The notes under the pieces: model-generated
The model's database searches: none
What the model saw: only the letters and a program-made list of their open reading frames with translations
What the model was told of the DNA's origin: nothing
Made by a program: the position numbers and the translations under genes
NCBI GenBank assembly: GCA_028280285.1
Contig: JANQMA010000026.1
Span: 822 to 64,821 of the forward strand
Source: Candidatus Omnitrophota bacterium
GTDB taxonomy: Bacteria; Omnitrophota; Gorgyraeia; Zapsychrales; Zapsychraceae
Reading direction: 5' to 3'
Length of the DNA stretch: 64,000 nucleotides
Part shown: one piece after another, positions 1 through 17,330 of the stretch
Layout: each line of letters begins with the position of its first letter
Position numbering within the stretch: position 1 is the first letter of the stretch

Positions 1-3000
1 CATTCACAATTATCAGGTGTTTCTGACTGATAGCCATCTAAAGGTTATGCTGGAAAAGGACCTTTTTGCCGCACGCCAGGAAATTGGCGCAGATGTAGCG
101 CACATGGAGGCGGCAGGCGAACTGGTCAGCTCGGAAGAAGTAGCTGCTGTGATCCGTGAAGTGCTTATTCCTGAGATTGAGTACGAGATCAATCATGGTA
201 AAAATTTCGCGACACTCCGTCAGATTTTTAACTCTGTTATTTTGGCCTCTTGGTATAAAGACAATCTAAAGGAGTCTTTACTCGGGAAGGTGTATGTTGA
301 TCAAAATAAGCTTGAAGGAATCAATGACAATGATACGGCCACCAATGAAGCGATCTACAATCAGTATTTAGAGGCATTTAAAGCCGGTGTCTATGACTAT
401 ATTAAGGAAGGGTACGATCCGAGCGCCCAGCAAATGACAGCCAAAAAATACTTCTCAGGCGGAATTGCAGATTTAGTTAGTTTAAAGCGTAAAGATAATG
501 GAGTATTAGGCAAAGATCTTACGGGCAGTGATAGTGCGACTTTAGCTAATCAATTGCGTATTCGAATAGCGAATTTTGAAGTAAACCTTCTTGAGTGGGT
601 TAAAGAACTTACTTCTGGTATTGAGGAAAGGGCAAAACAAAAACATGAAGCAGCTGTCCGTTATCGGGATTTTATTGATACAAAAGAACGGGTTAACATA
701 GAAAAAGGTTTATCAAATTTACCTGAAAAATATGAAAGAGCTGCCAGAGCTTTAATGGAATTACCAAAAGCATATTTTTCACAGAGACAGATTAGAAGTT
801 TACAAACAAGAATTATAAAGTCACCTAGGCGTCAGTTAGAGAGTACAAGTGAAAGCATTGCACAGAGTTTAGAGCTCAAATTAACTAAGTCTATGTCTGC
901 TAATACTGAATATAATTATAACAACATAATACGCTTTGTGTTCAAAGATGTGGTTAGTGGAGCAAAAGCTTTGCATATTATTAGTACTGATATGAGTGGG
1001 AATTATCATGAACAACCTTGGATTAGGCCAAGTAAGGATATTAAATTAGTTGTTGATCTTTTTCGGAGATTTGCTGAGTTACAACCGGATCCCACTACGT
1101 TTAAAAAAGCAGATAATCTTTTGGCGAATTATTTTAACGATGGTAGCGCCACGGCTTGGGCTGCGATAGGTCTTGGTAATACAGAAATTACAGATCCGGA
1201 TTTCTATAGGGAGTTAATGGCAGGAAATCTTAGGCGTGAACAAATTGCCCAAAAGATTTTATATTTTTCAGAGATTGTAGATGAATATGAATCTGTTAAG
1301 CTTGATCGCACGACAGCCGTAACCGAAGATAAACTTATTGGATTTAATGGATTGAGGCCAGCAAGTGTGCTTGATGTGCTTCGTGAGCTAGTTGATATCG
1401 AAAAAATAATAAAAACCAGCGATGCCGCCTCTATTGCAGACATTCCCGATGATGTCATATCTCCTAAAAGGAAACAAGAGCACATAAATAAGCTTAAAAA
1501 AGCTGGTACGCTCGCCAGCAGTGTAGAGAAGCAAAAACTGAGAACTGACACGATTAAGGCTATGCTACAGGATTTTTATGAGTATACTCAAAGGATTTTA
1601 CGTGAGAACGACAAAAAAAGAAGCAGCAATAGTTTGACAACGCTAGGTTATTTTATGCCTGATATAAAGAGCATGGAGTTTCAGTATAATCAAAGTGAGT
1701 ATGAATTAGTAGAACAAGACAACAGTTTAGTTGTTTATTCTCTTGGTGACGAGCGCTCGATTTTACCAAATCAAGATATTACGAGTAATTTGCTTGTAGA
1801 GATTTCTAAGGTATTGAAGCAACGGGCAGACCGCATGACTCAAAAGACAGAAGAGGCTGTTAAAAAATCTTCAGACGAAGAGTGGGAAGAAATTTATAAC
1901 CTTGTTGGTGATGAAAGTGATGCATGGTTAGATTTAGATTCCGCTGAAGGCCAGATGAAAGATGAGGCCTCACTAGACACGCTGCTGATTGATTATAAAG
2001 GTCATGATCCTGAGTTGCGCGATGTGACCAATGTGATTAATGCGTTGCCTAAAAAATATCGTGAGGCAATAGAAGAAGCAGATCGTCCTTCATCTGTTGC
2101 TGATATAATTACGAAAGCTGAATCAGAGGGTTTGGTTGAATTTGCAATAATTACCAAGAGCGATCAGGTACGGCCAGCCATAAGGCGTTTATTTTATGAT
2201 GAAGAGCTGCTGCCAGTTACATCTGCGAGCTTGGCAGTGAATTATACTGGAAAAACTCAAATCACTAAGCGAGTTACTGAAGTGCTTAACGCCGAGGCAA
2301 AAGATGATTCAGATTTTGATCAACAATTAAGGGGAGGACTATTAAAGAGAGAAGTCATTATTGAAAGGGTTATGAATTCTAAACATGCGCCGGATGATTT
2401 GCGCGCAGGAGATAGATATGTTCTTATCGGCGCTGCGATCGATGAGTTGGTCGAACGGGGAAATATGAAAACCAGCGACGCCGCCGCGCTTGGGCAGGAA
2501 ACCGTGGACGAATTTGATGCGGCGGACTTGGATATCGAAAAAGAGGATGATTGGGATGATATCATAAAAGCTGTTCGTCAATTAAAGCCAGGGAAGACAG
2601 AAGAAGGTTTACATGAGGCTATTATGGCGTATATGAAGAGACACCAAAAAATGTTTAAGGTTGATCAGGGAGCATATGAGATGTATGTTCTTCCGCAAAT
2701 GAGTAGGATCTTTGCTGAATTTTATGAAATGGGGGGGATACCCCTGTACATGCTAAAAGGCCTTAAAGATCATCTTGATGAAATTTCAAAGGCACCGACA
2801 AGAGATGAACAGGTTTTTTTCCTAGCTACAGTAACTCTAAATATTTTGGGTCTACATGAATATGATGCGAAGAAGATTTTTTCTGATTCTTCTTTGCCGA
2901 TGCAGGACTCCGGTATTAGCAAAGAAGATAGAATTAATACAATTACCAAAAACTATGACGCACTGAAAGAAAAGGCCCAATTTTTAAGTGTAATTGAATC

Positions 3001-6000
3001 AAGACTTAAAGCTAAAAATAATCAAGGAGATGCGGATGCAGATAAGCTGCTACTTAGGCATCGTTTGTTGACCGATATAATACGGTCTAGTTTAGTTAGG
3101 TTCAGTGTATCTTTAGATCGTATGATTTCTGAGATGCGATTATCACTTGAAGTAGATGAAGAATCGGTTCAGGAAGTGGATCTGCATTATGTGGACTACA
3201 CTCTTCGGGCGATACATTTGACTTTAGACTTTTTAATAACAGATGTAGACAAAGCCGCGCTTGAGCAGACTGATGCGGCGATATTATTAAGTCCTGAGGA
3301 GGAAGAAAGAGCGCTATTATTAACAGCAGCTGAAGATCGAATTAATACGCTTTTGGATGAGCAGTACAAATCAGGAAGTGTAACAAAAGAAATTTATGAA
3401 AAATCAAGGAAAAGCGCCTTTAAAAATTTTAAAGAATGGACAGAAAGCGAAGAGCTGTACCGCTTAGCACCGGGGATTCGCATGGCCAATTTGCAGGCTG
3501 TCCGTGATGGACGTTTTAATGATATCGTGGAGGCTTATCGTCAAGAAATCGCCTTTGGAACAGCAGGTATTCGCGGGAAAGCGGCACTAACTCTGGATGA
3601 ACTTTTTAAAATGAAAGAGGATGGTCCAGCGGCAGCAATTCTTAAGGGAATTAACACAATTAATGATGTCGTTCTTCTACATAAAACAGCCGGTGTTATC
3701 AAATATGCACAGGAGACAGGGCGCACACGTATTGTGCTTGGGTATGATAGCCGCATCGGCGGATCAGAATTTATTGATATGATTGCGCGTTTATTCATTA
3801 AAGCGTCCAAGCCCGAACATGAATTTAAACTTTTTATTTTTGACGAATCGGCGCCTTTTCCAGAGCTGTCTTTTGGTATTACAACAAAAGAAGTTCAAGG
3901 GCATATCGGTATTTTTATATCGGCAAGCCATAACCCTGCGGATTATAACGGATACAAAATTACACTGGAAACAGGAGCCCAATTGAACCAAGAAAATAAA
4001 AATCTTGTATTGGATGCGGTAAATAGAACAACATTTGCAGATATTGTGTTAGCAGATTCACTTGCGGATGCTAAACCTGGACAAATTGTATGGTTAGGTG
4101 GGAAAGAAAGGCTAGAAGATAAGCAGTATTATGGATTTGATTTGATCGATATGCATACATTACATGTTGAACAGGTAAAAAAGTTGATTCTTGATAAAGA
4201 AGCGATCACGCGTGAAGGGCGTAATGTTAATATCGGATTTGCTGCATTTAATGGGGCCGGGCGCAAAGCAGTACCACGTTTGTTGGATGAAACAGATTTT
4301 GATAATGTAAAGGTTGTGTCAAAACTCCAAGAGTTAGACGGGCTTTTTCCTGCCTTTAAATATGGAGAACAACCCGATCCAGGTGACCCAATTGCAGGGG
4401 AAATTGCCGTCAATGAGTTCATTAAGGAGCATGGGCAAGAAGCGTTTGATGAACTAGATCTTCTGGTGGGAACTGATCCTGATTCTGATCGTATGGGCGC
4501 GGTACTGAAAGTCCCTGAAAGCCAACAAGCACAATTTGGAAAATATAGATTAATATCAGCCAATGATGCCTGGACACTCCTTACATGGTACAGACTTATG
4601 AAAAAGAAGGAGATGGGTTTATTAGAAAATCCCGAAAACCATCTTGTTGTAACAACACATGCAACGAGTGATGCGATTGCTGAAGTTGCTGAACAGGAAT
4701 TTGGTGTTGGTTCATATGGAAGAATGTTAGATATGAATAAAAAAGAAGATCGTGGAGATTATTTAAATGGTCAGCGCACATGGGTTGGCTTTACATATGT
4801 CTCAGAGGCTTTTGAGGAAATTTTAAAGATGGGGAAAGTTGCCGAAGGCGGTTATGAAGAATCTAATGGAATGAGTTTGCACGGACACACAAATGATAAA
4901 GATGGAACTTTGGCGGCCATTTTATTTGCGGAAATGGCGGCTTATGCGAAATCAGAAGGAACAACGCTATTTGAAATGCTCGATGAAATTTATTTAAAAA
5001 TAGGGCATTTTGGAACGGCTAACAAACCGTTACCAAGGGTTGGTTCGTTTGAAGGGGCAGCAGGCGTTTCAGAGAAAATTAATATATTAAAGAAAGCACA
5101 AGAGTGGGCGGCTGAAGCAAATAGTCGTGCCGGAACAGATAATCCTTTTATGATTGCCGGCCGTGAGGTTATCGGAGCCGTTGAGTTTAAATCGGGGCGC
5201 ATTGATCATAATCACTATGAAGGCGTACCTGATGAAGGAATTAGATTTTTCTTTAAAGATGAAAACATGAAAGAGGGGGATCATTTTATAAAGAGTAAAA
5301 ATTATGTAATGATTCGCCCTTCCGGTACATCTCAGACATTACGATTCTATACACAACTTCTTAAAAAAGTTGATCGTGAAAATATTGCTCAGCAAAAGCT
5401 GGAAAATTATATAGCGACAGAGCAATTAGCGCTTATGACGCAAAGGCAAATCTTGGGAGATGTTGGTTTGACTAAATATTTTGCAATGGTGGATGCACAA
5501 CTAGCGGAAGTAAGTCTTTCTAATGATAACGCAGCAATTGAAGAGGAAAAAGAAGATGCAGCAAGCTTGGCCGCTGAAGTTGCCTTGAAGCAGCTGGAAC
5601 GGGCCATTGGGGATGATTTTTCCTTTTTTATGAATTATACAGCAAAATTAGAGTATCAAGGTAATGTTAGAAATATTTATTATAACGATAATAGGCCTTT
5701 AGAATTAGAAATGTTAGAAAAAGTTATGCGTCATTATCAGAAATTGTTAATTGACCATGGGTTTTTCGATTTGGAGGTCAAGCGTCTGCGCATTCAAGGA
5801 TTACCGATTGACAATGAAGTCCTTAAGGTAACCCGTCAATCAGAATTTGAGTATGCTATAAATTTAGGCGATAGCAAGCCGGTTAGCATGAGTATTGATG
5901 ATATTCGTTCATTTATTAGACAAGCCCGGGCTAAGCTTCTTAAGAATGGAGATATAAGAAACGGTATTTTAACGCAACTGGCAAAACAATTAAGTAAAAA

Positions 6001-8059
6001 GGGTATTGCGCGTCTAGAGATTCAGCCATTCCTACCGTGGACTTCGGGATGGGTTTTTGAGTCTCATCCTGAGGGTAAGTTTGAGTTGTTGAGAAAGGGC
6101 AAGCCCGTTGAGGTGACGGAAGGGCTGTTGACTCGAATTGCAAACAAAGCTATAGAAGAACTAAACCGTAAAAAAGCTGAGAAGGATTTTAAAAACAAAG
6201 GATTTAAAAAATTACTCGAAGACGCCGCGGCATTTACAAAAGAAGATTTAGCAAGTATCGCCCGTATTTCAACAGAAATTATCTCAGAAGAAAAAATGAA
6301 AACAATTATAGCGAAACTAAAGGCAATTCGTGAATCATCAAGTACACCTTCAGAGCTAAAAGAATCACGTGAAAGTGCTGTGCAAGGAATGCTAAATGAC
6401 TTTCAAGAGTATGCTACGCAGGTTTTAGGCGAAATTAATACCCTAAGAGCGAAAGCAAATCAAGATCCTATTGAGGAATTTATTGGTAAATATGATACAT
6501 TCAATCATGATGGAAAAGATTATCATATTACTATGAACGAATCGCTCACAATTTTTGCTCAACATTGGAATGGTCCATTTCCTCTGGAAAGAGTTACTGG
6601 GGCTTTGTTAAGGGCAATATCAGTTAAACTTACTACTCAGAAAGACAATTTACAGGAGGATGTTAAGGCGTTAAATGCAGAAGCATTGGAAGCTGAGCAA
6701 AGTAAAATTGATGAGTTTCTTGATGATGCGGCATTAACAGTAGTTGAAGCAACGCCTGCCGACGCCGCGGCATTGAATATGGTAGAGAAATTGGCTAAAG
6801 GGCTTAACGGTCAAACAATAGGTCTGTTGACTCTGGATTATGATTCTGATGAGAGTAAAAGATCGGATACTAAAGGACTCGCTGTCTTTGAATTGAATAT
6901 GAAACAAGCAACTTCTATTAATGCATTTATGGAACTTCATGTTGGCGTTGAACGGATCAAAAAAGCCAAAGGTGAGAAGAAAGATACGATGCGTGTGTAT
7001 GTGAATTTGTCAGGACAGATTAAAGAGCAGACTGCTGATGGGATAGAGAGATTTGATGTGTTAGAAATTATTCAGGAAAGAGGTGAAGATCGAAAGATTG
7101 TGGAGGAGTTTGCTCATCAATTAATGGACAGACTTCCTTCCATTGTTGAGTTTGGGAATAGGGTTTTGCAGATTGATTTTGAAAAAAATATTGTTGATAC
7201 GGTAGGTGAGACAGAGCTTAAAGAGTACTTTGCAGAGCGTAAGGCTAAAGTAAAGGTTACACAATATGCCGGTGGACCTGTTATGAGTGTAATATTTGGT
7301 CCTGCCGCACTTGAGCAGGAAGGGCAAGACGGGTCCAATGATTATCTATTGTTTTCTGTATTAGCGAACTCAAAAGTTTTAACAAAAGATGATAAAAACG
7401 CACTTAATTTTACATATACCCGGGTTGATGACTACGTTGATTCAGTAAAGAGAACGCAAGATTTATATTGGGATGTTGTTGAAAAAATAGGTGATCGGTT
7501 AAAAGAAAAAGGGATTCTCAACGCGGAAATGACTTCACTTAAAATGAGGGCACCTGTCCTTGGAAAGTTTAGGGGAAAGACAATTATTTTTAAAGAAAAT
7601 CCGAATAGATTTAACGTTAACCAATATACGGCGCCGTCAACGAAATATGCTTTATTTAGATATGAAGGTGTGAAGGAAGTGATAATGAAGCCTGATGAGA
7701 TTACAGAATCTATGCTTCGTAAGGTAATTAAAGCGGCAAATAAAGCATTGGAAGATCACGCGGCACTTGACCCGCTTGGGGGTATTGATCTTAATCCTGA
7801 CCTTTTGGATCTGCAAATTAAGCGCGACGGCCGCGGTATTCCACTGCCACTTGATCAACAACCGCTTGAAAATATGCAAATTGACGGTTTTCTACCTATT
7901 ATTATTAATATTAATCCAGTTGCCAATTTGCCGCTTCTTTTGGGGCTTCTAGATGAGGATGGAGAGACCAATGAGGCTGAGGCGGATGCCTCTCAATCAG
8001 CGCAACTATATGGAAGAGAAGAACTTAGCTATTTAAGAGAAGGTGACAGCGAATTCTAA
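1..8059 (+). CDS. Giant exported-family protein, paralog A (5' end lies outside the window; >2680 aa) with embedded phosphohexomutase domain
   Basis: ORF is open to the window edge. Codons 2-16 (IHNYQ) continue the paralog alignment 'IYIHN..VFLTDSHLKVMLEKD' seen in 14001..17330, so GTG at 17 is internal. Shares the N-module (NFATLRQIFNSVILASWYKDNLKE...YFSGG) and C-module (GGIDLNPDLLDLQIKRDGRGIPLP...GFLPIIININPVANLPLLLGL) with the next two genes. Stop TAA at 8057-8059. Confidence 0.85.
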   Translation, partial: IHNYQVFLTDSHLKVMLEKDLFAARQEIGADVAHMEAAGELVSSEEVAAVIREVLIPEIEYEINHGKNFATLRQIFNSVILASWYKDNLKESLLGKVYVDQNKLEGINDNDTATNEAIYNQYLEAFKAGVYDYIKEGYDPSAQQMTAKKYFSGGIADLVSLKRKDNGVLGKDLTGSDSATLANQLRIRIANFEVNLLEWVKELTSGIEERAKQKHEAAVRYRDFIDTKERVNIEKGLSNLPEKYERAARALMELPKAYFSQRQIRSLQTRIIKSPRRQLESTSESIAQSLELKLTKSMSANTEYNYNNIIRFVFKDVVSGAKALHIISTDMSGNYHEQPWIRPSKDIKLVVDLFRRFAELQPDPTTFKKADNLLANYFNDGSATAWAAIGLGNTEITDPDFYRELMAGNLRREQIAQKILYFSEIVDEYESVKLDRTTAVTEDKLIGFNGLRPASVLDVLRELVDIEKIIKTSDAASIADIPDDVISPKRKQEHINKLKKAGTLASSVEKQKLRTDTIKAMLQDFYEYTQRILRENDKKRSSNSLTTLGYFMPDIKSMEFQYNQSEYELVEQDNSLVVYSLGDERSILPNQDITSNLLVEISKVLKQRADRMTQKTEEAVKKSSDEEWEEIYNLVGDESDAWLDLDSAEGQMKDEASLDTLLIDYKGHDPELRDVTNVINALPKKYREAIEEADRPSSVADIITKAESEGLVEFAIITKSDQVRPAIRRLFYDEELLPVTSASLAVNYTGKTQITKRVTEVLNAEAKDDSDFDQQLRGGLLKREVIIERVMNSKHAPDDLRAGDRYVLIGAAIDELVERGNMKTSDAAALGQETVDEFDAADLDIEKEDDWDDIIKAVRQLKPGKTEEGLHEAIMAYMKRHQKMFKVDQGAYEMYVLPQMSRIFAEFYEMGGIPLYMLKGLKDHLDEISKAPTRDEQVFFLATVTLNILGLHEYDAKKIFSDSSLPMQDSGISKEDRINTITKNYDALKEKAQFLSVIESRLKAKNNQGDADADKLLLRHRLLTDIIRSSLVRFSVSLDRMISEMRLSLEVDEESVQEVDLHYVDYTLRAIHLTLDFLITDVDKAALEQTDAAILLSPEEEERALLLTAAEDRINTLLDEQYKSGSVTKEIYEKSRKSAFKNFKEWTESEELYRLAPGIRMANLQAVRDGRFNDIVEAYRQEIAFGTAGIRGKAALTLDELFKMKEDGPAAAILKGINTINDVVLLHKTAGVIKYAQETGRTRIVLGYDSRIGGSEFIDMIARLFIKASKPEHEFKLFIFDESAPFPELSFGITTKEVQGHIGIFISASHNPADYNGYKITLETGAQLNQENKNLVLDAVNRTTFADIVLADSLADAKPGQIVWLGGKERLEDKQYYGFDLIDMHTLHVEQVKKLILDKEAITREGRNVNIGFAAFNGAGRKAVPRLLDETDFDNVKVVSKLQELDGLFPAFKYGEQPDPGDPIAGEIAVNEFIKEHGQEAFDELDLLVGTDPDSDRMGAVLKVPESQQAQFGKYRLISANDAWTLLTWYRLMKKKEMGLLENPENHLVVTTHATSDAIAEVAEQEFGVGSYGRMLDMNKKEDRGDYLNGQRTWVGFTYVSEAFEEILKMGKVAEGGYEESNGMSLHGHTNDKDGTLAAILFAEMAAYAKSEGTTLFEMLDEIYLKIGHFGTANKPLPRVGSFEGAAGVSEKINILKKAQEWAAEANSRAGTDNPFMIAGREVIGAVEFKSGRIDHNHYEGVPDEGIRFFFKDENMKEGDHFIKSKNYVMIRPSGTSQTLRFYTQLLKKVDRENIAQQKLENYIATEQLALMTQRQILGDVGLTKYFAMVDAQLAEVSLSNDNAAIEEEKEDAASLAAEVALKQLERAIGDDFSFFMNYTAKLEYQGNVRNIYYNDNRPLELEMLEKVMRHYQKLLIDHGFFDLEVKRLRIQGLPIDNEVLKVTRQSEFEYAINLGDSKPVSMSIDDIRSFIRQARAKLLKNGDIRNGILTQLAKQLSKKGIARLEIQPFLPWTSGWVFESHPEGKFELLRKGKPVEVTEGLLTRIANKAIEELNRKKAEKDFKNKGFKKLLEDAAAFTKEDLASIARISTEIISEEKMKTIIAKLKAIRESSSTPSELKESRESAVQGMLNDFQEYATQVLGEINTLRAKANQDPIEEFIGKYDTFNHDGKDYHITMNESLTIFAQHWNGPFPLERVTGALLRAISVKLTTQKDNLQEDVKALNAEALEAEQSKIDEFLDDAALTVVEATPADAAALNMVEKLAKGLNGQTIGLLTLDYDSDESKRSDTKGLAVFELNMKQATSINAFMELHVGVERIKKAKGEKKDTMRVYVNLSGQIKEQTADGIERFDVLEIIQERGEDRKIVEEFAHQLMDRLPSIVEFGNRVLQIDFEKNIVDTVGETELKEYFAERKAKVKVTQYAGGPVMSVIFGPAALEQEGQDGSNDYLLFSVLANSKVLTKDDKNALNFTYTRVDDYVDSVKRTQDLYWDVVEKIGDRLKEKGILNAEMTSLKMRAPVLGKFRGKTIIFKENPNRFNVNQYTAPSTKYALFRYEGVKEVIMKPDEITESMLRKVIKAANKALEDHAALDPLGGIDLNPDLLDLQIKRDGRGIPLPLDQQPLENMQIDGFLPIIININPVANLPLLLGLLDEDGETNEAEADASQSAQLYGREELSYLREGDSEF
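3389..5420 (+). other. Complete alpha-D-phosphohexomutase (PGM/PMM, PgcA/PGM2-like) domain embedded in the giant ORF
   Basis: All four family motifs are in frame. FGTAGIRG begins at 3551. Phosphoserine loop SASHNP is at 3920-3937. Metal loop GTDPDSDRMG is at 4469-4498. Sugar loop GGYEESNG is at 4847-4870. Phosphate loop IRPSGTSQTLRFY is at 5312-5350. Domain boundaries are approximate. Confidence 0.85.
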
Positions 8060-8094
8060 CAAGGCCACACACTATCCCCCAAACCGTTTCAATC

Positions 8095-8122
8095 TTGAAT
8101 TGGCTTAACAGCATGCTATACT
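8095..8122 (+). promoter_or_regulatory. Putative sigma70-type promoter of giant paralog B (TTGAAT-N16-TATACT)
   Basis: TTGAAT at 8095-8100, 16-nt spacer, TATACT at 8117-8122, about 70 nt upstream of ATG 8193. The identical hexamer pair and spacing recur upstream of paralog C. Confidence 0.4.
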
Positions 8123-8192
8123 TATAACTATAATATTAGAAATTAAGGCATTTAGGTGCTGTTTGTATACTTTTACCAGGGAAGGGGTAAAT

Positions 8193-11100: not shown

Positions 11101-13742
11101 TTTATGTGTCCAAAGATCAGCTAAAACCAGAGGCCTATCGTGAATATGATAGTCGTTATGATATTACGGAAGCCGTAGTGGAAAATACTATGCAAGGTCT
11201 GGCACGGTTAATGCCCAAAACGACTGAAAGGCAGGGCAAAAATGGAGAAAACATGTTGCTTCCTCTGGCTGAAAAGAATATAGGAGCTAAGCAAATCACT
11301 TTTAATTATATGATTGGGGAGGATCATTGGCTTGCCTTTGCGCGCTATACTGAAGACCATGTGAAAAAAGCAAAGCGAACAATTAATGATCTTGAGAAAG
11401 AAAAAGAGCAATTAAACAGTAAGATAAAAAATGCTGAGGTGCCAGAAGAAAAAGATCAAACGGAGTTTCGAGTAGAAATTAATAGGCGCCTAACAGAGAT
11501 TGATCAAAAAATAGAGCACAACCAGAATATTAAGGCGGGAGGTATTATACCCACCCGTGTAAAGTTGGATGAAGCGGATTTTATGGTTATGGAGGGGTAT
11601 CTGGATTTATTGAAATTATTGCTTGAGAAGGATAAAGAAAGCTTAACAGATCAGCAGGTTGAGGCCATTGAAGTACTCCTTGACCAAAGAGCTCTTTTCT
11701 TAGATGAATTGTCTGATGCGGCTGAGGAAGATAGGAAGTTAGATAACGATGACCCTGAAGATACGCCACATTTGTTTGAAGTATTTAAAAAATATGGTAT
11801 TTCAGAAGTTCCTAAGCTGGACACAGCCGGAAAGATTCATTTATCGGCAAAGGAATTTAAAAAACGTCATCCGGATCAGCCTATTGAAATGAGGGTTGTA
11901 ATTACCAAGCGCGGCAGTATTATGGAAGATAAAATTCGCGATGAGCTTAAAGTTCCACATACTATTAATCCAGGTTTGGACTATCCGGTTTCTTCAACCG
12001 CACTGAGAACTGCGCTTGTGAATATTCCACGTGATAGGTTAGACCGAGGTGAATTGCCTTTTGTATTTATCGATACCGTGGATGAATTATTAGAATCTCA
12101 GAGGAGAGAACATCTTTATTCATTGTTATTGACAAAAAGTGAACCAACCCTAGCTAATGCACTTGAAGTTGTATTTCCTAAAAATCAAGCAAGAAAAGAA
12201 CAGCGGCATACTCAATTAAGAGCAGATCTTCAACAGGCGCTTCAAGAGGGATATTATACCAACAATGTAAATGTTGATGGGCATGTTGAGCCCAAAAACA
12301 ACCGTTCTGTATTGGACATTCAAGTTAATGACGATAAATTTCGTGTTGTCTATAATGTTGTCAATCGTGCAAAGACAAAGGGAAACATAGTTCGATTTGC
12401 TGTTAGCGATCAGAATAATAAAGAAATTAGTCAGACGGAGTGGTCAGAAAAATCTGTTTTAAGTAGTGCCGTAGAAGAATATTTGAAAAGTTATACTGGC
12501 GCTGTTGTTACGACATACTTGCCACTTGAGGAGTTAAGTAAACGTGAGCTTGTCCATCAAAGAGGTAAGGATCTCAATTTTCTTTCCAGCAATGATGGTC
12601 AAATTATGCAATTCATGCAAGAGTTTGCGCAGGAATTCACACATGATACTACTACTGAATCCCGTGAACAAGAATTATCAGAAGACTTTGAGCTTGTTGT
12701 CTTTGACCGCCCACGATTTTTACGTCAAGATGGGCGGATTGAGATTCAATTTACTCATCAAATATTTAATGATCCAGTTAATAAGGCATGGACAGCAGAT
12801 GGATATTTTCAATATATTGATGAAAAAATTGTTTCTGAGCTAAATTGGTTTTTAAGTGATAGGCGACTAAAAGCCGAAGCGCTAAACAATACGTTAACGA
12901 TCAATAAGAATAGAGACGGCATGCCTTACGTTACAATGGAAATTGAAATATCTAAGGTCTCGGCTACTTTGGGGCAAAAAGACAGTGAAAACGAGTCCGA
13001 CGCCCCGACTATGACCAGTGGACAAAGATTATTTGTTGTTAACGAATCGCAGAATAAGGTAAACCAATTTAGTGTAGAGGATATGGATCCTGATTTTGGA
13101 AGGATAAAAAGCACGGCAACGGTACGGTTTCTTCCGTCGAACGGTAACGGTGTTGTCAAGGGTATGGTGAGGTATATTCCTAATCAACGTGATAATTCAA
13201 ATCAAAATGAATTAAATAAATTAAAATTTAAATTAAAAGAAAAATATGTGCAGAATAATGAACAAGAAAAGCGCGATATCGAAGAGGAAATTAAAACACT
13301 TGAGACTAAGCTTAAAGAAAGCAGGGAAAATGTTTTAACAAAACTTGAAAAGGAGTTAAATTCTTTAAACGATGACCTCAATCCCGGAGAAACACAGGAG
13401 TATGATGTTAAACCTTCTCGACTCGTTACCAATGATGGCTTTGAACTAACCATTACGTTGCAGGATAACGCAGCGGTTACAGCCGATCCGGTGGGTGGTA
13501 TTGATCTTAATCCCGAGATGCTTGATCTTCAGATCAAACGCGACGCAAGCGGCATGCCGCTTCCGGTGAGTCAGCAGCCGATTATCAATATGGATATCGA
13601 AGGGTTTGTGCCGGTTATTATTAATATCACGCCTGTTACCAATGTTCCGCTTATGCTGGGTTTAATTAATGAAGGAACGATTGAGGTAGAAGAAGAGCCG
13701 CTTGAGGCCGTTCAGGCCGTCCGGTTTGATGAGTTGAGTTAA
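8193..13742 (+). CDS. Giant exported-family protein, paralog B (1849 aa)
   Basis: ATG 8193 is preceded by GGAAGGGG. Signal peptide ends ...APGSARA|QF. Has the conserved N-module and C-module (GGIDLNPEMLDLQIKRDASGMPLP...GFVPVIINITPVTNVPLMLGL) around a unique ~1400-aa core with coiled-coil stretches. Confidence 0.85.
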   Translation: MSISFKSSSKSPLTQITSLFVAFIFCFTSVIAPGSARAQFIPTPAVMPAVGSMVQISNAFDPLIIKGLTIHPENPLEFSFLVDLGDTNYSETKIKDESQRLITYFMAGLTVPESELWVNLSPYENNRIIPDSLGQTAMGRDLLAQDYLLKQLTASLMYPEDELGDKFWTQIKQRVEALYGPGVDIPTNVFNKVWIMPESAEIYIHNTSVFLLGSRLQVMLEEDYVAARKAIGADVAHMETAGELLGHQEVAEVVREVILPAIEEEVNFGENFSTLRQIFNSIILASWYKDNLKETILGQIYADQNKLKGIDENDKQTNQQIYQKYLEAFEEGVYNYIREEYDPAKQQIIPRKYFSGGWLHDQAALLTHENTVVEGQYGQPLDAAVLQNFGKAMTPEVVRKMKRVRAQLAQESAKTHTVESIAYQPLLSNIPKTIINNVEASQLTDLLQEDQINLIARKTLLELINQRGVLDYGIDVNVQAGEAIDFIFNTDMDDRIMRAVRTELQSEEELSTQRMLDLLDAFSVEVTIVEGGASRSEEMSLRDYIQGNLQHAVYLAHAVGNADERGDESTRVRKRRGIREQLERSFPGVSSVTLRTIARDLVKLQRNRLNDDHMSLIVQAVSDKVQAKVSFDQVYTTDEFSFRVRKQGQLEIAAARGNIFSDVSWGSLTVNQLGLIAQAVDNASIQDPVEPGTIQQQSMVKESADFNRITSYAGQSFQRDNLSQLMREASFVSESRENFVELRDQFERIRTASDPQGSIVGIKVIENTQPLQYGGGFELDGIVYVEQSLLDHIEKNNNPFNMRERMLRNFFRKGTALERKIAEYDELVQKYGESRLNLFPEGRVLQSYRDTLYGQLPADKNNTERLNIILEKHGFNNVKITEPDEKAIELTNILKEHIDIALYTMAINSANKFIDLNKNIRMHTDDPLLDSNEEYVANFFAFAAYPATVAHFITVALKGGALSYSDDNIFYVSKDQLKPEAYREYDSRYDITEAVVENTMQGLARLMPKTTERQGKNGENMLLPLAEKNIGAKQITFNYMIGEDHWLAFARYTEDHVKKAKRTINDLEKEKEQLNSKIKNAEVPEEKDQTEFRVEINRRLTEIDQKIEHNQNIKAGGIIPTRVKLDEADFMVMEGYLDLLKLLLEKDKESLTDQQVEAIEVLLDQRALFLDELSDAAEEDRKLDNDDPEDTPHLFEVFKKYGISEVPKLDTAGKIHLSAKEFKKRHPDQPIEMRVVITKRGSIMEDKIRDELKVPHTINPGLDYPVSSTALRTALVNIPRDRLDRGELPFVFIDTVDELLESQRREHLYSLLLTKSEPTLANALEVVFPKNQARKEQRHTQLRADLQQALQEGYYTNNVNVDGHVEPKNNRSVLDIQVNDDKFRVVYNVVNRAKTKGNIVRFAVSDQNNKEISQTEWSEKSVLSSAVEEYLKSYTGAVVTTYLPLEELSKRELVHQRGKDLNFLSSNDGQIMQFMQEFAQEFTHDTTTESREQELSEDFELVVFDRPRFLRQDGRIEIQFTHQIFNDPVNKAWTADGYFQYIDEKIVSELNWFLSDRRLKAEALNNTLTINKNRDGMPYVTMEIEISKVSATLGQKDSENESDAPTMTSGQRLFVVNESQNKVNQFSVEDMDPDFGRIKSTATVRFLPSNGNGVVKGMVRYIPNQRDNSNQNELNKLKFKLKEKYVQNNEQEKRDIEEEIKTLETKLKESRENVLTKLEKELNSLNDDLNPGETQEYDVKPSRLVTNDGFELTITLQDNAAVTADPVGGIDLNPEMLDLQIKRDASGMPLPVSQQPIINMDIEGFVPVIINITPVTNVPLMLGLINEGTIEVEEEPLEAVQAVRFDELS

Positions 13743-13748
13743 ATTTAT

Positions 13749-13911: not shown

Positions 13912-13939
13912 TTGAATTCCCTCTAATTTACGTTATACT
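13912..13939 (+). promoter_or_regulatory. Putative sigma70-type promoter of giant paralog C (TTGAAT-N16-TATACT)
   Basis: TTGAAT at 13912-13917, 16-nt spacer, TATACT at 13934-13939, about 61 nt upstream of TTG 14001. Same hexamers and spacing as at 8095-8122. Confidence 0.4.
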
Positions 13940-14000
13940 TTTACTACAGTATTTCTGTGACACAGTATTGTTCAATTCTACCAAATAGAAGGAGTTACCA

Positions 14001-17000
14001 TTGAAGTCGCTTAAATCTTTCATCCTATCTAAAGTCATTTCATCGCTTACTATATTAATATTTTTATTAGGTAATATTATTATTCCAACCAATACATACG
14101 CAGAGCAAATTGCCACGCCTGTCTTTATGCCGCCTGTAGGTAGTATGATAGGCGCAAGTGAAATGTATACGCCAACGATTATCAACGGATTAATCATCAA
14201 TCCCGATGATCCACTGCAATTTTCATTCCTTGTCGATGCCGGTGATGCGAATCTTCAAGGCGAGGCGTTTAAAGAAGAGTCGCAACGCTTAGTGAATTAT
14301 TTTATGGCGGGGTTAGCTGTTCCGGAAGATGAGATATGGGTTAACTTGTCGCCCTATGAGAAAAATCGTATTGTTCCTGATGCCTTAGGGCAAACAGCGA
14401 TGGGGCGTGACTTGCTTGCCCAAGATTATTTGCTTAAACAATTTACAGCTTCTCTGATGTATCCGGAAGATGAAATGGGTAAAGCCTTCTGGAAGCGAAT
14501 TAAAGAGAAGGTAAGCACCAAACATGGCATTGATGATATCCCGACTAATATGTTTAGTAAAGTTTGGATCGTCCCAGAAAGTGCAAAGATTTATATTCAC
14601 AATATGACAGTATTTTTAACGGATAGTCATTTAAAGGTTATGCTTGAAAAAGACTATTTAGCGACGCGTGAGGCGGTAGGTGATGATGTATCGCATATGG
14701 AAACAGAGCAGGAGCTTTTATCTTCAGAAAATGTTGCCTCTATCATACGAGACATCATTATTCCTGAAATTGAGCATGAGGTAAATCATGGCAAAAACTT
14801 TGCACCTCTTCGCCAAATCTTTAACTCGGTTATTCTTGCTTCCTGGTACAAGGCGAACTTAAAAGAGTCTTTGCTCGGACAAATCTATATTGACCAAAAC
14901 AAAATCGAAGGCATTAATGACAATGCGCCGGCAACGAATCAAGCGATTTACGACCAGTATCTAGAGGCCTTTAAAGCAGGCGTTTATAATTATGTGAAAG
15001 AAGAGTATGACCCTGCAGCCCAGCAAATGGTGGCGCAAAAATATTTTTCCGGCGGGATCGCAAACGATTTTGCAGCAATGGTTGATAATTCCAAATTACA
15101 AACAGTTGGAAAAATAATGGACGGGTTGGATCCGGCCAACATATCTGATTTGCAGAATAGCAATAGTGGGAGTATTCAAAGAGTAGATGTTGAAGTAAAG
15201 CCTGAAGAAATAAATCTTACTACAGTGGATGCTGCCATTTTAGAAGAAATTTCTTACATAAAAGCACTACTGGAACTTTCCTTTGAAGAAGAAGGTAATA
15301 ATGGTGATGAGGAATTTATTGAGGAAATCATGAGCAGTACATCGAGAATAATTGATTACTTCAAAGGTGCTGAAGAAAAGGATTTTAAATCTGACTATGA
15401 AGAAACTGTCCAACACTTAGTTTGGTGGCTTGGGTTCAAATTGCGTGAGGCTAGCTCTCCTGAGGATGGGTTAAATAAGACAATTCAAGTTAATTTCTTA
15501 CATAAAGGCAATGAATATGAGTACGTAGAAAAAAATGATATTAATAGGTCGATGGTAAGGGTTAAAAGTGACAGTTGGAAGAAGGAAGTTAGTCCAATAA
15601 ATACTCCAAGTCTTGCTGAGAACATCAGTTTACTTGAAGTCATGTTGGCTAGCAGTAGGCGAAACCTTGATACACATGTAAGGCGTCCAGTCAAAAACGA
15701 TGTCATTGAGCGTGTCAGGAAATGGCCTTTATTTGTTTTTGAGAATAACGCCGAAAGAAGATGGGTTCTTGATGCGCTTACAAGGAGACGTAATAAAGAT
15801 ATTAATTTAGGTAGCCTCCAGCTTGACGGCTTTGATGCTATTTTAGACAGAATTATTTCACGCCAACTAAAGGGTCAAAAGCGTAATGTAACCGTTGACG
15901 AAAAGCAAATACTTTTAAATCCTATTAATAACAGAAAAACTCTTTACGGAGGGGCGGATATAAGCAGCATACCTATTTTGGTATTACTTAGTATTGTTGA
16001 AGAGATTTACGAGCTGAAGATGTCTAATGAGGTTATTGAGACTACCAGGAAAAAGATGGAGTCAGTTAAGGATAATACTTGGAATATAGTTCGAAAATTT
16101 ATTGATGAGCAAATGAGCGAATATGAGGATCATGAATTGGTTTGGTCGATATATACGAAACCTGATTCTGATTTTAATACAGAAACAGTGTTGGTTATTG
16201 TTCCAAAGAAAGAAAATATAGATCGAGAAAAATTTAATCGGCAGATTGGTATTTTAAGTGAAGCGATTATTGAAAATGTAAATCTTCCCGAGGGGATAAA
16301 TATATTTAAACAAGGGGATAAAAACGCTTCAGATAAAGATTTATTAATCTTCAGAGAAAAAGAAGATGTTAAATTTACTGATGCTGAATCAGGAGAAATA
16401 TTGGAGTTTTATGAAGGAGTAAAGTTGCGTATTAAGCATGCTCCCGAATTTTTCCAACTTGACGGGAAAGGTAATCAATCAGTATTATCACAAAATGACC
16501 GCGAAAAACGGGCTGTGCGCAATATTACACGTGATTTTTATTTGGATTTACGTGTGGCAGATGAAACAAAAGACGATTTAAAACGGATCGATGTCCATTA
16601 TTATTATGGGCTTTCCTCTGGTCGTCGAGGGGTTGTGCCTATTTATGTAAAACAAGATGAGGATATTAACAATATTGCTGATGCGTTGTTGTTTGGTGTG
16701 CAGAGCCAGGTTAATGAAACTAATTTTTATAGACTTATATTTAATGATGTGCGCAGTACTTTAGTTAGACTTTTTGATGGAGAAAATCAAAAAAGACTTA
16801 ACCAGTTTGATAAAATTATTGCCGAAGCGGTAAAAAAAGGAAAATTTGCAAGCGAAGCAAAAGAAAAAATCTTTAAATGGGGCAGAGAAAATCAGCAGTA
16901 TACAGATAAAGAAGGATTAGAAGAGTTTCTACGTGCGCAATACGCGACTTTTAATATTGATTCAGAAATTATACTTAAGCATCTTCTTGACTCAGACTAC

Positions 17001-17330
17001 TTTTCCCAAATAAAAGATATAGTCCGCGGGTTTGACTTGAGCGCAGATAATGCTCATCTGACACCCGGTGGTATTGACCTTAATACCAAGATGCTTGATC
17101 TTAAGCTTGAGTATGATGGCAGCAATATACTGCCTACCGTGGATCCTGCGGTCTTAAAAGACATCAACATTAAAGGGCTTACCCCAATTATTACGAATGT
17201 GGTGCCGATCAGCAATTTGCCGCTTATGCTCGGGTTTGGTGATGGGCCGGGTTCGGATGACTCCGGGCCCTATACGATGGGGTCTGTTGGCGATCTTTCC
17301 TATCTTAAGTCGCAGGAGTTATATAAGTAA
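14001..17330 (+). CDS. Giant exported-family protein, paralog C (1109 aa)
   Basis: TTG start lies 6 nt after GAAGGAG. Signal peptide ends ...PTNTYA|EQ. The N-module is about 3/4 identical to paralog A by hand count over ~150 aa. C-module is GGIDLNTKMLDLKLEYDGSNILP...GLTPIITNVVPISNLPLMLGF. The core is unique. Confidence 0.85.
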   Translation: MKSLKSFILSKVISSLTILIFLLGNIIIPTNTYAEQIATPVFMPPVGSMIGASEMYTPTIINGLIINPDDPLQFSFLVDAGDANLQGEAFKEESQRLVNYFMAGLAVPEDEIWVNLSPYEKNRIVPDALGQTAMGRDLLAQDYLLKQFTASLMYPEDEMGKAFWKRIKEKVSTKHGIDDIPTNMFSKVWIVPESAKIYIHNMTVFLTDSHLKVMLEKDYLATREAVGDDVSHMETEQELLSSENVASIIRDIIIPEIEHEVNHGKNFAPLRQIFNSVILASWYKANLKESLLGQIYIDQNKIEGINDNAPATNQAIYDQYLEAFKAGVYNYVKEEYDPAAQQMVAQKYFSGGIANDFAAMVDNSKLQTVGKIMDGLDPANISDLQNSNSGSIQRVDVEVKPEEINLTTVDAAILEEISYIKALLELSFEEEGNNGDEEFIEEIMSSTSRIIDYFKGAEEKDFKSDYEETVQHLVWWLGFKLREASSPEDGLNKTIQVNFLHKGNEYEYVEKNDINRSMVRVKSDSWKKEVSPINTPSLAENISLLEVMLASSRRNLDTHVRRPVKNDVIERVRKWPLFVFENNAERRWVLDALTRRRNKDINLGSLQLDGFDAILDRIISRQLKGQKRNVTVDEKQILLNPINNRKTLYGGADISSIPILVLLSIVEEIYELKMSNEVIETTRKKMESVKDNTWNIVRKFIDEQMSEYEDHELVWSIYTKPDSDFNTETVLVIVPKKENIDREKFNRQIGILSEAIIENVNLPEGINIFKQGDKNASDKDLLIFREKEDVKFTDAESGEILEFYEGVKLRIKHAPEFFQLDGKGNQSVLSQNDREKRAVRNITRDFYLDLRVADETKDDLKRIDVHYYYGLSSGRRGVVPIYVKQDEDINNIADALLFGVQSQVNETNFYRLIFNDVRSTLVRLFDGENQKRLNQFDKIIAEAVKKGKFASEAKEKIFKWGRENQQYTDKEGLEEFLRAQYATFNIDSEIILKHLLDSDYFSQIKDIVRGFDLSADNAHLTPGGIDLNTKMLDLKLEYDGSNILPTVDPAVLKDINIKGLTPIITNVVPISNLPLMLGFGDGPGSDDSGPYTMGSVGDLSYLKSQELYK

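What the first reader, a model, noticed from the sequence alone, without database searches (positions are those of the whole stretch)
1..17330. Tandem trio of giant exported paralogs: conserved N- and C-terminal modules around unrelated hypervariable cores
Seen in sequence. Three co-directional genes encode >2680, 1849 and 1109 aa. The two complete ones have Sec-type signal peptides (..GSARA|QF and ..NTYA|EQ). Each then has a module of about 340 aa that aligns without gaps (PxxGSM...F.FLVD.GD...ESQRL..YFMAGL.VPE.E.WVNLSPYE.NRI.PD.LGQTAMGRDLLAQDYLLKQ.TASLMYPEDE...NF..LRQIFNS.ILASWYK.NLKE...YFSGG). By hand count, paralogs A and C are about 3/4 identical over the ~150 aa visible for A. All three end with a ~55-aa block, GGIDLN(P)..LDLQIKRD..G.PLP..QQP..NM.I.GF.P.I.NI.PV.N.PL.LG, followed by a short acidic, non-conserved tail. 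Between the modules lie 0.65-2.2k aa with no similarity I can detect among paralogs. At the DNA level the shared modules differ at many synonymous sites, so this is an old family under purifying selection at its ends, not a recent duplication. I cannot place either terminal module in a named family. Inference: a 'delivery/anchor module - variable cargo - sorting module' architecture, meaning a polymorphic surface or effector family. Both ends are conserved and the middle is variable, which differs from Rhs/CDI-type toxins that vary only at the C-terminus.
Basis: partly seen in the sequence, partly recalled or inferred. Interest (0 to 1): 0.88.

Follow-up and report, generated by a model that had tools for sequence, protein, structure and literature searches.

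The report
Omnitrophota exported enzyme-carrier protein family
Three neighbouring giant genes belong to a huge, apparently undescribed protein family found only in Omnitrophota bacteria, in which a signal peptide and two constant end-modules of unknown fold carry cysteine-free copies of normally cytoplasmic enzymes, which suggests these tiny bacteria export part of their enzyme set.

Summary
Three co-directional genes (A 2888 aa in full, B 1849 aa, C 1109 aa) share a Sec-type signal peptide, a ~370-aa N-module (66-72% identical) and a 56-aa C-module with an acidic tail. Their cores are unrelated. The trio samples a family of more than 6,600 clusters (50% identity), seen only in Candidatus Omnitrophota, many copies per genome and often in tandem. 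Each protein has one N-module at the start and one C-module at the end. Cores often hold complete cytoplasmic-type enzymes or regulators: phosphoglucomutase in A; PGI, aldolase, PEPCK, FBPase, glycogen synthase and receiver domains elsewhere. The family is almost cysteine-free (0.042% against 1.24% in neighbouring genes). Free-standing homologues of A's mutase carry a median of 6 Cys; A's copy has none. Neither module matches Pfam, NCBIfam, PDB sequences or PDB folds, and I found no paper describing them. Best reading: a phylum-specific export chassis that carries cargo beyond the cytoplasmic membrane. What the modules do and where the cargo ends up are inferred. A D-x-A-[A/M]-L motif marks module boundaries. 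One enolase carries the C-module without signal peptide or N-module. Interest is high; the mechanism is unproven.

The parts
2..8059 (+). Paralog A, 3' 2685 codons of a 2888-aa gene. The 5' 203 codons, with the signal peptide and the first half of the N-module, lie outside the window.
2..463 (+). A: second half of the N-module, up to the invariant KYFSGG
3248..5539 (+). A: phosphoglucomutase-like cargo unit of 759 aa, bracketed by DKAAL and DNAAI motifs. Pfam PGM_PMM I-III map to nt 3656-4990. Motifs SASHNP, DPDSDR, GYEESNG and RPSGT are present. It has 0 Cys.
7778..7945 (+). A: C-module, GGIDLNP...NLPLLLG (56 aa)
7946..8056 (+). A: acidic tail with ELSYL
8193..13742 (+). Paralog B (1849 aa from ATG 8193; an upstream TTG at 8163 gives 1859 aa)
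8193..8306 (+). B: signal peptide, predicted cleavage ARA|QF
8307..9440 (+). B: N-module (YFSGG ends at 9263; DQAAL boundary motif at 9273-9287)
9441..13463 (+). B: orphan core with no family hit and no similarity to A or C
13464..13739 (+). B: DNAAV motif (13464-13478), C-module (13494-13661), acidic tail (13662-13739)
14001..17330 (+). Paralog C (1109 aa, TTG start). It is identical to database protein P0001.
14001..14102 (+). C: signal peptide, predicted cleavage TYA|EQ
14103..15230 (+). C: N-module. AF2 pLDDT is above 90 over most of aa 50-330. YFSGG ends at 15056, the DFAAM motif is at 15066-15080, and the terminal beta-strand or hairpin is at 15174-15227.
15231..17045 (+). C: orphan core. 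No homologue covers it among 5.8 billion proteins except the protein itself. The AF2 model has low confidence here.
17046..17327 (+). C: DNAHL motif (17046-17060), C-module (17067-17234), acidic tail with DLSYL (17235-17327)

Best explanation
The three genes are tandem, anciently diverged members of a very large protein family restricted to Omnitrophota. The family acts as an export chassis. Each precursor has a cleavable Sec-type signal peptide, a ~370-aa constant N-terminal domain of unknown fold, and a variable cargo region. In A the cargo includes a complete phosphoglucomutase-like enzyme; in B and C it is orphan sequence. A flexible linker follows, then an almost invariant 56-aa C-terminal module and an acidic tail. 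Shown: the architecture, its scale, its restriction to one phylum, the strict one-N-one-C arrangement, the cargo content and the near-total removal of cysteine. Inferred: the polypeptide crosses the cytoplasmic membrane through Sec and lives or travels outside the cytoplasm. That would explain the selection against cysteine. Also inferred: the two constant modules are the parts read by shared envelope machinery or by each other (docking, retention, onward translocation or assembly), while the cargo supplies the activity. The final destination (periplasm, surface coat or a host cell) is not resolved. The D-x-A-[A/M]-L motifs at module boundaries may be processing or docking sites.
For: The architecture SP + N + core + C holds in 119 of 123 proteins and in 115 ORFs from 158 loci, always with one copy of each module. 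There are 8,291 representative clusters at E<=1e-3 and 6,641 at E<=1e-30, each with a single N-terminal N-module, 420-5312 aa long among the 150 listed. All named hits and genome loci are Omnitrophota. One MAG supplies at least 9 of the 80 loci listed, and tandem arrays occur in at least 25 of 79 loci. Signal-peptide features are canonical, with Q at +1 in 90%. Cysteine: 127 in 303,974 residues (0.042%), 151 of 221 proteins have none after aa 40, against 1.24% in other ORFs of the window. The 106 free-standing homologues of A's mutase have a median of 6 Cys and never zero, while A's unit has 0. Radical-SAM cargoes keep 5-6 Cys. Cargo enzymes are complete: PGI 630 bits, aldolase 263 bits, plus PEPCK, FBPase, starch synthase, UDPGP+REC. 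A's mutase keeps its catalytic motifs. N-modules are under strong purifying selection. 210 of 221 cores lack strong TM segments. The window encodes Mla and SurA-like genes, so the organism is diderm.
Against: No experiment or dedicated predictor confirms export or signal-peptide cleavage. Cargo such as ATP-, GTP-, UTP- or NAD-dependent enzymes, receiver domains, sigma-54 activators, HTH and DnaJ domains has no obvious use outside a cytoplasm. No transporter or other partner gene recurs next to family genes (best neighbour cluster 6 of 79 loci). One complete enolase carries the C-module with neither signal peptide nor N-module, so the C-module can occur on a protein not predicted to use Sec. 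The boundary motif is present in only about a third of members. I could not inspect the relative placement of N- and C-modules in the AF2 model.
Confidence: 0.5

Rival explanations
1. Self-delivering effectors aimed at a host or prey cytoplasm, working like MARTX toxins. After secretion, the conserved N- and C-modules cooperate to carry the central cargo across the target cell membrane. There the cytoplasmic-type enzymes and regulators act, possibly after cleavage at the D-x-A-[A/M]-L sites.
For: Conserved ends around a variable modular centre is the MARTX layout (PMC5218395, PMC4453568). The cargo only makes biochemical sense inside a cytoplasm. Omnitrophota are inferred symbionts, predators or parasites (PMC10066038). 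The proteins are cysteine-free, acidic and very large. Boundary motifs bracket the 759-aa mutase unit in A. The top Foldseek hits for the N-module are ClyA-type pore formers, but these are not significant.
Against: There are no RTX repeats, no cysteine protease domain and no homology to MARTX. MARTX toxins lack Sec signals. The Foldseek hits have E 0.09-0.7 and TM about 0.1. Central-metabolism enzymes are unprecedented as effectors. No secretion genes are linked.
Confidence: 0.15
2. Resident extracytoplasmic enzyme display. The proteins stay in the periplasm or in the surface coat. The N- and/or C-module docks them onto the wall, the outer membrane or the giant scaffold proteins of Omnitrophota, working like dockerin-cohesin in cellulosomes.
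For: It has the same layout as cellulosomal enzymes: signal peptide, catalytic modules, then a 60-aa C-terminal docking module. Omnitrophota giants carry the same Pfam cargo set and are predicted to be membrane- or surface-associated. The C-module is a confidently predicted small folded unit (pLDDT 80-95), not a loose signal. Its DGNG-type loops suggest a structured binding module.
Against: There is no Pfam dockerin or cohesin match. Nucleotide-dependent enzymes would lack substrates outside the cytoplasm. The enolase with a C-module has no signal peptide.
Confidence: 0.17
3. One-step, C-terminus-first secretion. The C-module is a novel type I-like secretion signal, and the N-module is a retention plug that holds the protein at the envelope, working like LapA-type RTX adhesins, with release by cleavage at the Ala-Ala/Ala-Met motif.
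For: The substrates are huge, acidic and cysteine-free, with a conserved extreme C-terminal module. The enolase + C-module fusion lacks any N-terminal signal. A motif containing a di-alanine sits just after the N-module, loosely like the LapG site (my own knowledge). C39-peptidase domains are common in Omnitrophota giants.
Against: The family has canonical Sec signal peptides with a conserved cleavage site, which T1SS substrates lack. There are no RTX repeats. No ABC/MFP/TolC genes are linked.
Confidence: 0.08
4. Cytoplasmic enzymes tethered to the inner face of the membrane by an uncleaved N-terminal anchor. The modules act as scaffolding for metabolic channelling inside the cell.
For: The cargo is cytoplasmic in type. 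The 2026 preprint favours a cytoplasmic-face reading for its TM-only giant proteins.
Against: The positively charged n-region followed by a hydrophobic run and an A-x-A|Q site predicts that the bulk of the protein lies outside. The 30-fold cysteine purge, absent from free-standing homologues, has no rationale in the cytoplasm.
Confidence: 0.05
5. A polymorphic toxin or contact-dependent competition family of the Rhs/CDI type, or purely structural adhesins or S-layer proteins.
For: The proteins are large, secreted, variable and arranged in tandem.
Against: There are no RHS, TPS, toxin or immunity-type domains. Variation is central rather than C-terminal. The cargo is metabolic or regulatory. 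There is no conserved small downstream gene.
Confidence: 0.03

Closest known systems
MARTX toxins (Vibrio RtxA family)
   Same: They are very large secreted proteins whose conserved N- and C-terminal regions flank a variable array of independent enzymatic domains. Processing releases the central domains (PMC5218395, PMC4453568).
   Different: MARTX ends are glycine-rich repeats, export is type I without a Sec signal, a cysteine protease domain does the processing, and the cargo is toxins for eukaryotic cells. Here the ends are single globular or short modules with no repeats, a Sec signal is present, no protease domain was found, and the cargo is central-metabolism and regulatory domains.
Two-partner secretion exoproteins (TpsA: FHA, ShlA, CdiA)
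   Same: They have a Sec signal peptide followed by a conserved N-terminal domain of about 250-300 aa that serves as the secretion handle, then a long variable remainder. They are cysteine-poor.
   Different: The TPS domain is a beta-helix (Pfam Haemagg_act). The N-module here has mixed alpha/beta secondary structure in the model, with no Pfam or fold match. No TpsB gene lies nearby. TpsA proteins have no conserved C-terminal module.
Type IX secretion cargo of Bacteroidota
   Same: They have a Sec signal peptide, diverse functional domains and a conserved C-terminal domain of about 70-100 aa used as an outer-membrane sorting tag. There are dozens to hundreds of cargo proteins per genome.
   Different: There is no TIGR04183/TIGR04131 or Pfam CTD match. 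The phylum differs. T9SS cargo has no constant N-terminal domain, and its enzymes are of extracellular type.
Cellulosomal enzymes (dockerin-bearing)
   Same: They have a signal peptide, catalytic modules and a C-terminal module of about 60 aa that docks the enzyme on a giant scaffold. Omnitrophota do have giant dockerin-type proteins.
   Different: There is no dockerin signature. The cargo here is not glycoside hydrolases. An extra constant N-module is present.
Giant 'multi-enzyme' and Archaeovorin proteins of Omnitrophota (West-Roberts 2023 preprint; 2026 complete-genome preprint)
   Same: Same phylum and same unusual cargo repertoire: PGM, PGI, FBPase, aldolase, starch synthase, receiver, HATPase, methyltransferase, radical SAM, ROK. 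Both are predicted to be extracytoplasmic.
   Different: Those studies treat proteins of at least 10-30 kaa through Pfam content. In the passages I read, they do not describe the N- or C-module. Among the best 150 proteins returned by the N-module profile search, sizes are 0.4-5.3 kaa with exactly one N-module per protein, so the giants are not concatenated units of this family.

Membership tests
Two-partner secretion TpsA (T5bSS) | N-terminal TPS domain (Pfam Haemagg_act, right-handed beta-helix) | tested here: not met
Two-partner secretion TpsA (T5bSS) | Adjacent TpsB (Omp85-type) transporter gene | tested here: not met
   Window neighbours are sugar-nucleotide and glycosyltransferase genes. 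No neighbour family recurs (best 6 of 79 loci).
Type IX secretion cargo | C-terminal CTD (TIGR04183 / TIGR04131 / Pfam Por_Secre_tail) | tested here: not met
   NCBIfam and Pfam scans of whole proteins and of 32 C-modules found nothing.
RTX / MARTX type I substrates | Glycine-rich nonapeptide (RTX) or MARTX A/B/C repeats | tested here: not met
   No HemolysinCabind or other repeat hit. The C-module occurs once per protein.
RTX / MARTX type I substrates | No N-terminal Sec signal; uncleaved C-terminal signal | tested here: not met
   Canonical signal peptides with an A|Q site are present. The conserved extreme C-terminus is only a resemblance.
Classical or trimeric autotransporters (T5a/T5c) | C-terminal beta-barrel translocator (Pfam Autotransporter / YadA_anchor) ending in an aromatic residue | tested here: not met
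   No Pfam hit. The C-module is 56 aa and is followed by a variable acidic tail.
Sortase/exosortase-type C-terminal sorting signals (LPXTG, PEP-CTERM, GlyGly-CTERM) | Short motif + TM helix + basic tail | tested here: not met
   The hydrophobic stretch contains three prolines and is predicted as a beta-strand. The tail has net charge -3. No NCBIfam match.
Rhs / CDI polymorphic toxins | RHS/YD repeats or a TPS + FHA scaffold, with a variable C-terminal toxin and a downstream immunity gene | tested here: not met
   No such domains. The variable part is central and the C-terminus is the most conserved part. No recurrent downstream gene.
Cellulosomal dockerin | Duplicated calcium-binding F-hand (Pfam Dockerin_1) | tested here: not met
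   No hit.
alpha-D-phosphohexomutase superfamily (cargo of paralog A) | Pfam domains I, II, III | tested here: met
   PGM_PMM_I 71 bits, II 34 bits, III 35 bits. 37-42% identity over 99-100% of the 601-aa query to about 740-aa free-standing proteins, some named phosphoglucomutase by their sources.
alpha-D-phosphohexomutase superfamily (cargo of paralog A) | Catalytic phosphoserine loop (T/S)ASHNP, metal loop DxDxDR, sugar loop and phosphate-binding loop | tested here: met
   SASHNP, DPDSDR, GYEESNG and RPSGT can be read in the translation. The serine loop and sugar loop align to PDB 2f7l. Pfam domain IV was not detected, and activity was not tested.

The most novel reading that the evidence does not exclude
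Omnitrophota have a phylum-specific, previously undescribed protein-targeting system. Two novel constant modules, a ~370-aa N-domain and a 56-aa C-tag, route thousands of different cargoes out of the cytoplasm. The cargoes include cysteine-purged copies of glycolytic, gluconeogenic and glycogen enzymes, kinases and transcription regulators. This would imply an extracytoplasmic metabolism (energised periplasm or surface coat) or mass delivery of housekeeping-type enzymes into host cells, possibly as polyproteins cut at D-x-A-[A/M]-L sites.
Probability: 0.4. Interest if true: 0.92.

Novelty: categorically new. Interest (0 to 1): 0.82.

Why it matters
Omnitrophota are widespread, uncultured, ultra-small bacteria thought to live on other cells. 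Their giant proteins with 'misplaced' metabolic domains are an acknowledged puzzle in two recent preprints. This family makes the puzzle tractable. Its proteins are 1-3 kaa rather than 100 kaa. It has two sharply defined constant modules that can be expressed, solved, tagged and used as search profiles. The cysteine purge is an internal signature of where the proteins go. If the modules are targeting devices, they define a new export or delivery route and a catalogue of thousands of cargoes. If the enzymes work outside the cytoplasm, that challenges assumptions about bacterial compartmentation. At the least, two large domain families are missing from Pfam and NCBIfam, so about 400 aa of each of these proteins is currently not annotated.

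Tried and rejected
1. Giant Omnitrophota proteins might be tandem fusions of SP-N-core-C units. Rejected: the profile search of 1.84 billion representatives lists a single N-terminal N-module as the main match in each of the 150 proteins shown; multi-copy proteins would have ranked first.

2. A dedicated transporter or immunity gene might sit next to family genes. Clustering of 759 flanking ORFs from 79 loci gave no family present in more than 6 loci.

4. Sequence-profile searches of the N- and C-modules against PDB, Pfam and NCBIfam at E<=10 found nothing consistent.

5. A C-module profile search in the word-indexed protein database returned only short gene fragments and was uninformative. 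The first metagenome attempt failed for lack of conserved columns, so I repeated it with a tighter alignment.

6. The D-x-A-M-L motif as a universal processing site. It is strongly enriched, but 134 of 212 proteins lack the strict form, and enzyme-bearing members such as P0014 and P0073 have none. I keep it as an accessory feature.

7. Promoter and terminator scans between the three genes were at chance level.

8. Five literature searches, plus reading three Omnitrophota papers, found no description of the modules.

9. Cores as membrane proteins. Only 11 of 221 have a strong TM-like segment.
Full report
**1. What is in the window**

Three co-directional ORFs fill bases 1-17,330: 2..8059 (open at the 5' end), 8163..13742 and 14001..17330 (translations). 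BLASTP between them finds only two shared regions. The first is an N-terminal block, 55-68% identical (E 1e-63 to 1e-142). The second is a C-terminal block, 35-56% identical (E 1e-14 to 1e-28). Every other pairing scores E>2, so the cores are unrelated at this sensitivity.

A longer public contig with the same genes shows that gene A is 2888 aa. It also begins with a signal peptide and a full N-module. Over 309 aligned codons the N-modules are 66-72% identical. Synonymous sites are saturated (pS 0.75-0.82) and dN is only 0.20-0.27. These are therefore old duplicates under purifying selection, not a recent amplification. Six-frame HMM scans find no further copy in the 64-kb window.

**2. The trio samples a very large family confined to one phylum**

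A search with paralog C returned more than 2,657 proteins. The 120 listed match the query only over its N-terminal third at most (28-44% coverage, 42-65% identity). All sources that name an organism say Candidatus Omnitrophota or Omnitrophica.

A profile of the N-module was run against 1.84 billion cluster representatives. It found 8,291 clusters at E<=1e-3 and 6,641 at E<=1e-30. Each of the 150 listed has its N-module match at residues ~30-365, and the proteins are 420-5312 aa long.

The 80 best that were listed all come from Omnitrophota MAGs or from MAGs auto-labelled 'Planctomycetales'. One MAG contributed at least 9 of the top 80. Co-directional tandem arrays like the one here occur in at least 25 of 79 loci.

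In 119 of 123 proteins, and in 115 ORFs from 158 loci, the layout is the same: signal peptide, one N-module, a core, and one C-module at the extreme C-terminus. Core length runs from about 160 aa in the shortest complete member to more than 4,800 aa, with a median near 800. ORFs that carry only one of the modules are cut by contig ends or are halves of split genes.

**3. The constant parts**

*Signal peptide.* Across the family the n-region has median net charge +3 and the uncharged run is 19 residues. There is a small residue at -3 and Ala at -1. Gln is at +1 in 162 of 181 proteins. In the window the predicted sites are ARA|QF (B), TYA|EQ (C) and AAA|QL (A). No dedicated predictor was available, so this rests on rules.

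*C-module.* The consensus is vGGIDLNPxlLDLQIKRDGnGvPLPxxqQpIenmnIdGFxPVIINiTPvtNLPLLLG. GGI, G-F-x-P-x-I and a later Pro are at least 97% conserved. It is preceded by an Ala/Ser-rich linker. It is followed by a tail of about 33 aa with net charge -3 and a frequent (D/E)LS(Y)L motif. It too has no match anywhere. In the full-length model it is predicted with pLDDT 80-95. This suggests a small folded unit rather than a loose peptide signal. I could not inspect what it packs against.

**4. The variable part is cargo of cytoplasmic type**

Paralog A contains PGM_PMM domains I-III. The phosphoserine loop SASHNP, the metal loop DPDSDR, the sugar loop GYEESNG and the loop RPSGT are all present. This unit is 37-42% identical over its whole length to free-standing proteins of about 740 aa from many phyla, which some sources name phosphoglucomutase.

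Other family members carry complete PGI (630 bits) and class I aldolase (263 bits). Others carry PEPCK, FBPase, starch/glycogen synthase, UDP-glucose pyrophosphorylase with a receiver domain, and a HAD hydrolase. By precomputed Pfam accession numbers, which I name from my own knowledge of Pfam, further members carry histidine-kinase ATPases, sigma-54 activators, HTH, DnaJ, PP2C, methyltransferases, radical SAM, ROK kinases, nucleotide kinases and amino-acid dehydrogenases.

B and C have orphan cores. No protein among 5.8 billion covers the core of C except the protein itself.

The same odd cargo set has been noted in the giant (at least 10 kaa) proteins of this phylum. There it is predicted to be extracellular or membrane-associated and is treated as a puzzle (10.1101/2023.11.21.568195; 10.64898/2026.06.07.730766). 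In the passages I read, those papers work from Pfam content and do not describe the two modules. Neither does the main genomic survey of the phylum (PMC10066038).

**5. Independent evidence that these proteins leave the cytoplasm: a cysteine purge**

The mature parts of A, B and C contain no cysteine at all. Across 221 family members there are 127 Cys in 303,974 residues (0.042%), and 151 proteins have none. The other ORFs of the same window have 1.24%.

The control is direct. The 106 free-standing homologues of A's mutase have a median of 6 Cys (0.87%) and never zero. A's copy has none. Members whose cargo is a radical-SAM enzyme keep 5-6 Cys. So cysteine is kept where chemistry demands it and removed elsewhere.

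Scarcity of cysteine is a known trait of proteins that cross the envelope unfolded. For autotransporter passengers this is noted in PMC9769942; for RTX proteins it is my own knowledge. Together with the signal peptides, this makes an extracytoplasmic fate the best-supported step of the model. It argues against a cytoplasm-facing tether. The organism is diderm: MlaD/E/F and a SurA/PpiD-like chaperone are encoded in the window.

**6. What I infer, and how firmly**

Shown: the architecture, scale, phylum restriction, cargo content, cysteine purge, purifying selection on both modules, and absence of known relatives.

Inferred, about 0.8: the proteins are exported across the cytoplasmic membrane.

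Inferred, about 0.5: the two constant modules are handles read by shared machinery or by each other, for docking, retention, onward translocation or assembly. That would make the family an export chassis for variable cargo.

Not resolved: the destination. The cargo only makes biochemical sense in a cytoplasm, which favours delivery into a host or prey cell, working like MARTX toxins (PMC5218395, PMC4453568). There is no homology to any delivery system, and no linked secretion genes. A resident surface or periplasmic display, working like dockerin-tagged cellulosomal enzymes on the phylum's giant scaffolds, fits the small folded C-module. It leaves the nucleotide-dependent cargo unexplained.

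A type I-like, C-terminus-first route fits one striking exception. A complete enolase with its native N-terminus, no signal peptide and no N-module carries a linker and the C-module (L119). But this route conflicts with the conserved Sec signals of the family.

**7. A boundary motif**

The pentapeptide D-x-A-M-[LVM..] occurs 167 times in 228,056 post-N-module residues, against 10.8 +/- 2.9 in shuffles. It is concentrated just after the N-module (51 sites) and just before the C-module (24 sites). In some members it recurs every 110-250 aa.

The window's paralogs use a D-x-A-[A/H/M]-[LVIFM] variant. B and C each have exactly two sites outside the N-module, one right after YFSGG and one 5-6 residues before GGIDLN. 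A has seven sites against 0.58 expected (0 of 2000 shuffles reach seven). Two of them bracket 759 aa containing the mutase, which is the size of the free-standing enzyme.

This looks like a processing or docking site that partitions a polyprotein-like cargo. About two-thirds of members lack the strict motif, so it cannot be essential to the family.

**8. Comparison and membership**

I tested the defining features of these families: TpsA/TPS, T9SS cargo, RTX/MARTX, autotransporters, sortase-type sorting signals, Rhs/CDI toxins and dockerins. For each, at least one defining feature was tested and not met (see the membership table). The family resembles several of them in logic, but is a member of none. 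The only secure family assignment is the phosphohexomutase cargo in A.

**9. Novelty and verdict**

Two large domain families, present in thousands of proteins, are absent from Pfam (2025 copy) and NCBIfam (2026). They have no PDB fold relative and no description in the searchable literature. They frame cargo of a kind unprecedented for exported protein families. I rate the system as lying outside known kinds. The caveats are that the mechanism is inferred, subscription literature was not searchable, and AFDB-scale fold searches could not be run. Interest 0.82.

Noticed in passing
L119:3705-5543 (metagenome contig Ga0209515_10024286): A complete enolase (Enolase_N 184 bits, Enolase_C 407 bits) with its native N-terminus, no signal peptide and no N-module. 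It continues through a linker of about 130 aa into the GGIDLNP C-module and has 0 Cys. GT9 and GT2 genes lie upstream. It is the only clear case of a C-module without an N-module among about 125 genes.
   Followed up: partly
window 2477-2491, 3248-3262, 5525-5539, 6221-6235, 6722-6736, 6761-6775, 7754-7768 (A); 9273-9287, 13464-13478 (B); 15066-15080, 17046-17060 (C): A short motif, D-x-A-[A/M/H]-[LVIFM], sits at module boundaries. Family-wide the strict D-x-A-M-L form is 15-fold enriched over shuffles. In A it brackets the 759-aa mutase unit. It could be a cleavage or docking site.
   Followed up: yes
window 457-463, 9257-9263, 15050-15056 (end of N-module) and 7778-7783, 13494-13499, 17067-17072 (start of C-module): An invariant double glycine occurs at both junctions (KYFSGG and GGIDLN). 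C39 (double-glycine) peptidase domains are reported as common in Omnitrophota giant proteins. The link is speculative and was not tested.
   Followed up: no
N-module of C, window ~14337-14360 (WVNLSPYE): The most conserved motif of the N-module lies in a stretch with low pLDDT in the module-only model (block mean 49). This is more typical of a functional binding or catalytic loop than of the structural core.
   Followed up: no
family-wide; window 8307-8309, 14103-14105: The signal peptides are unusually alike between paralogs and species (..YRILSAFIAFTFIFS..PP..YA|Q). Gln is at +1 in 90% of members, though C has Glu. This may indicate pyroglutamate formation or a dedicated recognition step.
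   Followed up: partly
window 8163 vs 8193: Paralog B has two candidate starts. Public collections hold both forms: 1859 aa from TTG (NCBI) and 1849 aa from ATG (Logan). A promoter-like site matching 11 of 12 positions lies at 8105-8134, but such sites occur at chance frequency in the region.
   Followed up: partly
window 17446-26703: Directly downstream lies a sugar-nucleotide and glycan cluster: two GFO/IDH/MocA oxidoreductases, two DegT aminotransferases, a hexapeptide acyltransferase, a UDP-GlcNAc 2-epimerase, GT2, GT1 and DUF354. It resembles pathways for diacetamido-uronic acid sugars of surface glycans.
   Followed up: partly
window 28948-33048 and 35396-39756 (- strand): Envelope genes: an LPG_synthase_TM protein, MlaE/MlaF/MlaD, and on the minus strand a TPR protein, a YfhO-like membrane protein and a PMT-family glycosyltransferase. 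These are consistent with a diderm envelope and possible protein or glycan mannosylation.
   Followed up: no
window 49113-50312: A GH5 cellulase-family glycoside hydrolase sits among housekeeping genes.
   Followed up: no
L160:1-8598; also L003, L019, L059, L102, L155: Several family genes in public assemblies are interrupted by an in-frame stop (L160) or split into an N-half and a C-half in different frames. This affects about 5-6 of about 125 genes. It could be sequencing error in long genes, pseudogenisation or recoding.
   Followed up: no
models ma3dd165a0a99 and m264ff1dde145: In both Foldseek runs the top hits, none significant, were ClyA-family pore-forming toxins (MakE, MakB, MakA, NheA), with E 0.09-0.7 and TM about 0.1.
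   Followed up: partly
family members P0107, P0079 (radical SAM cargo): The few cysteine-containing members are mainly those whose cargo needs Cys for an Fe-S cluster. This implies the purge is selective and that the cargo is meant to be active.
   Followed up: partly
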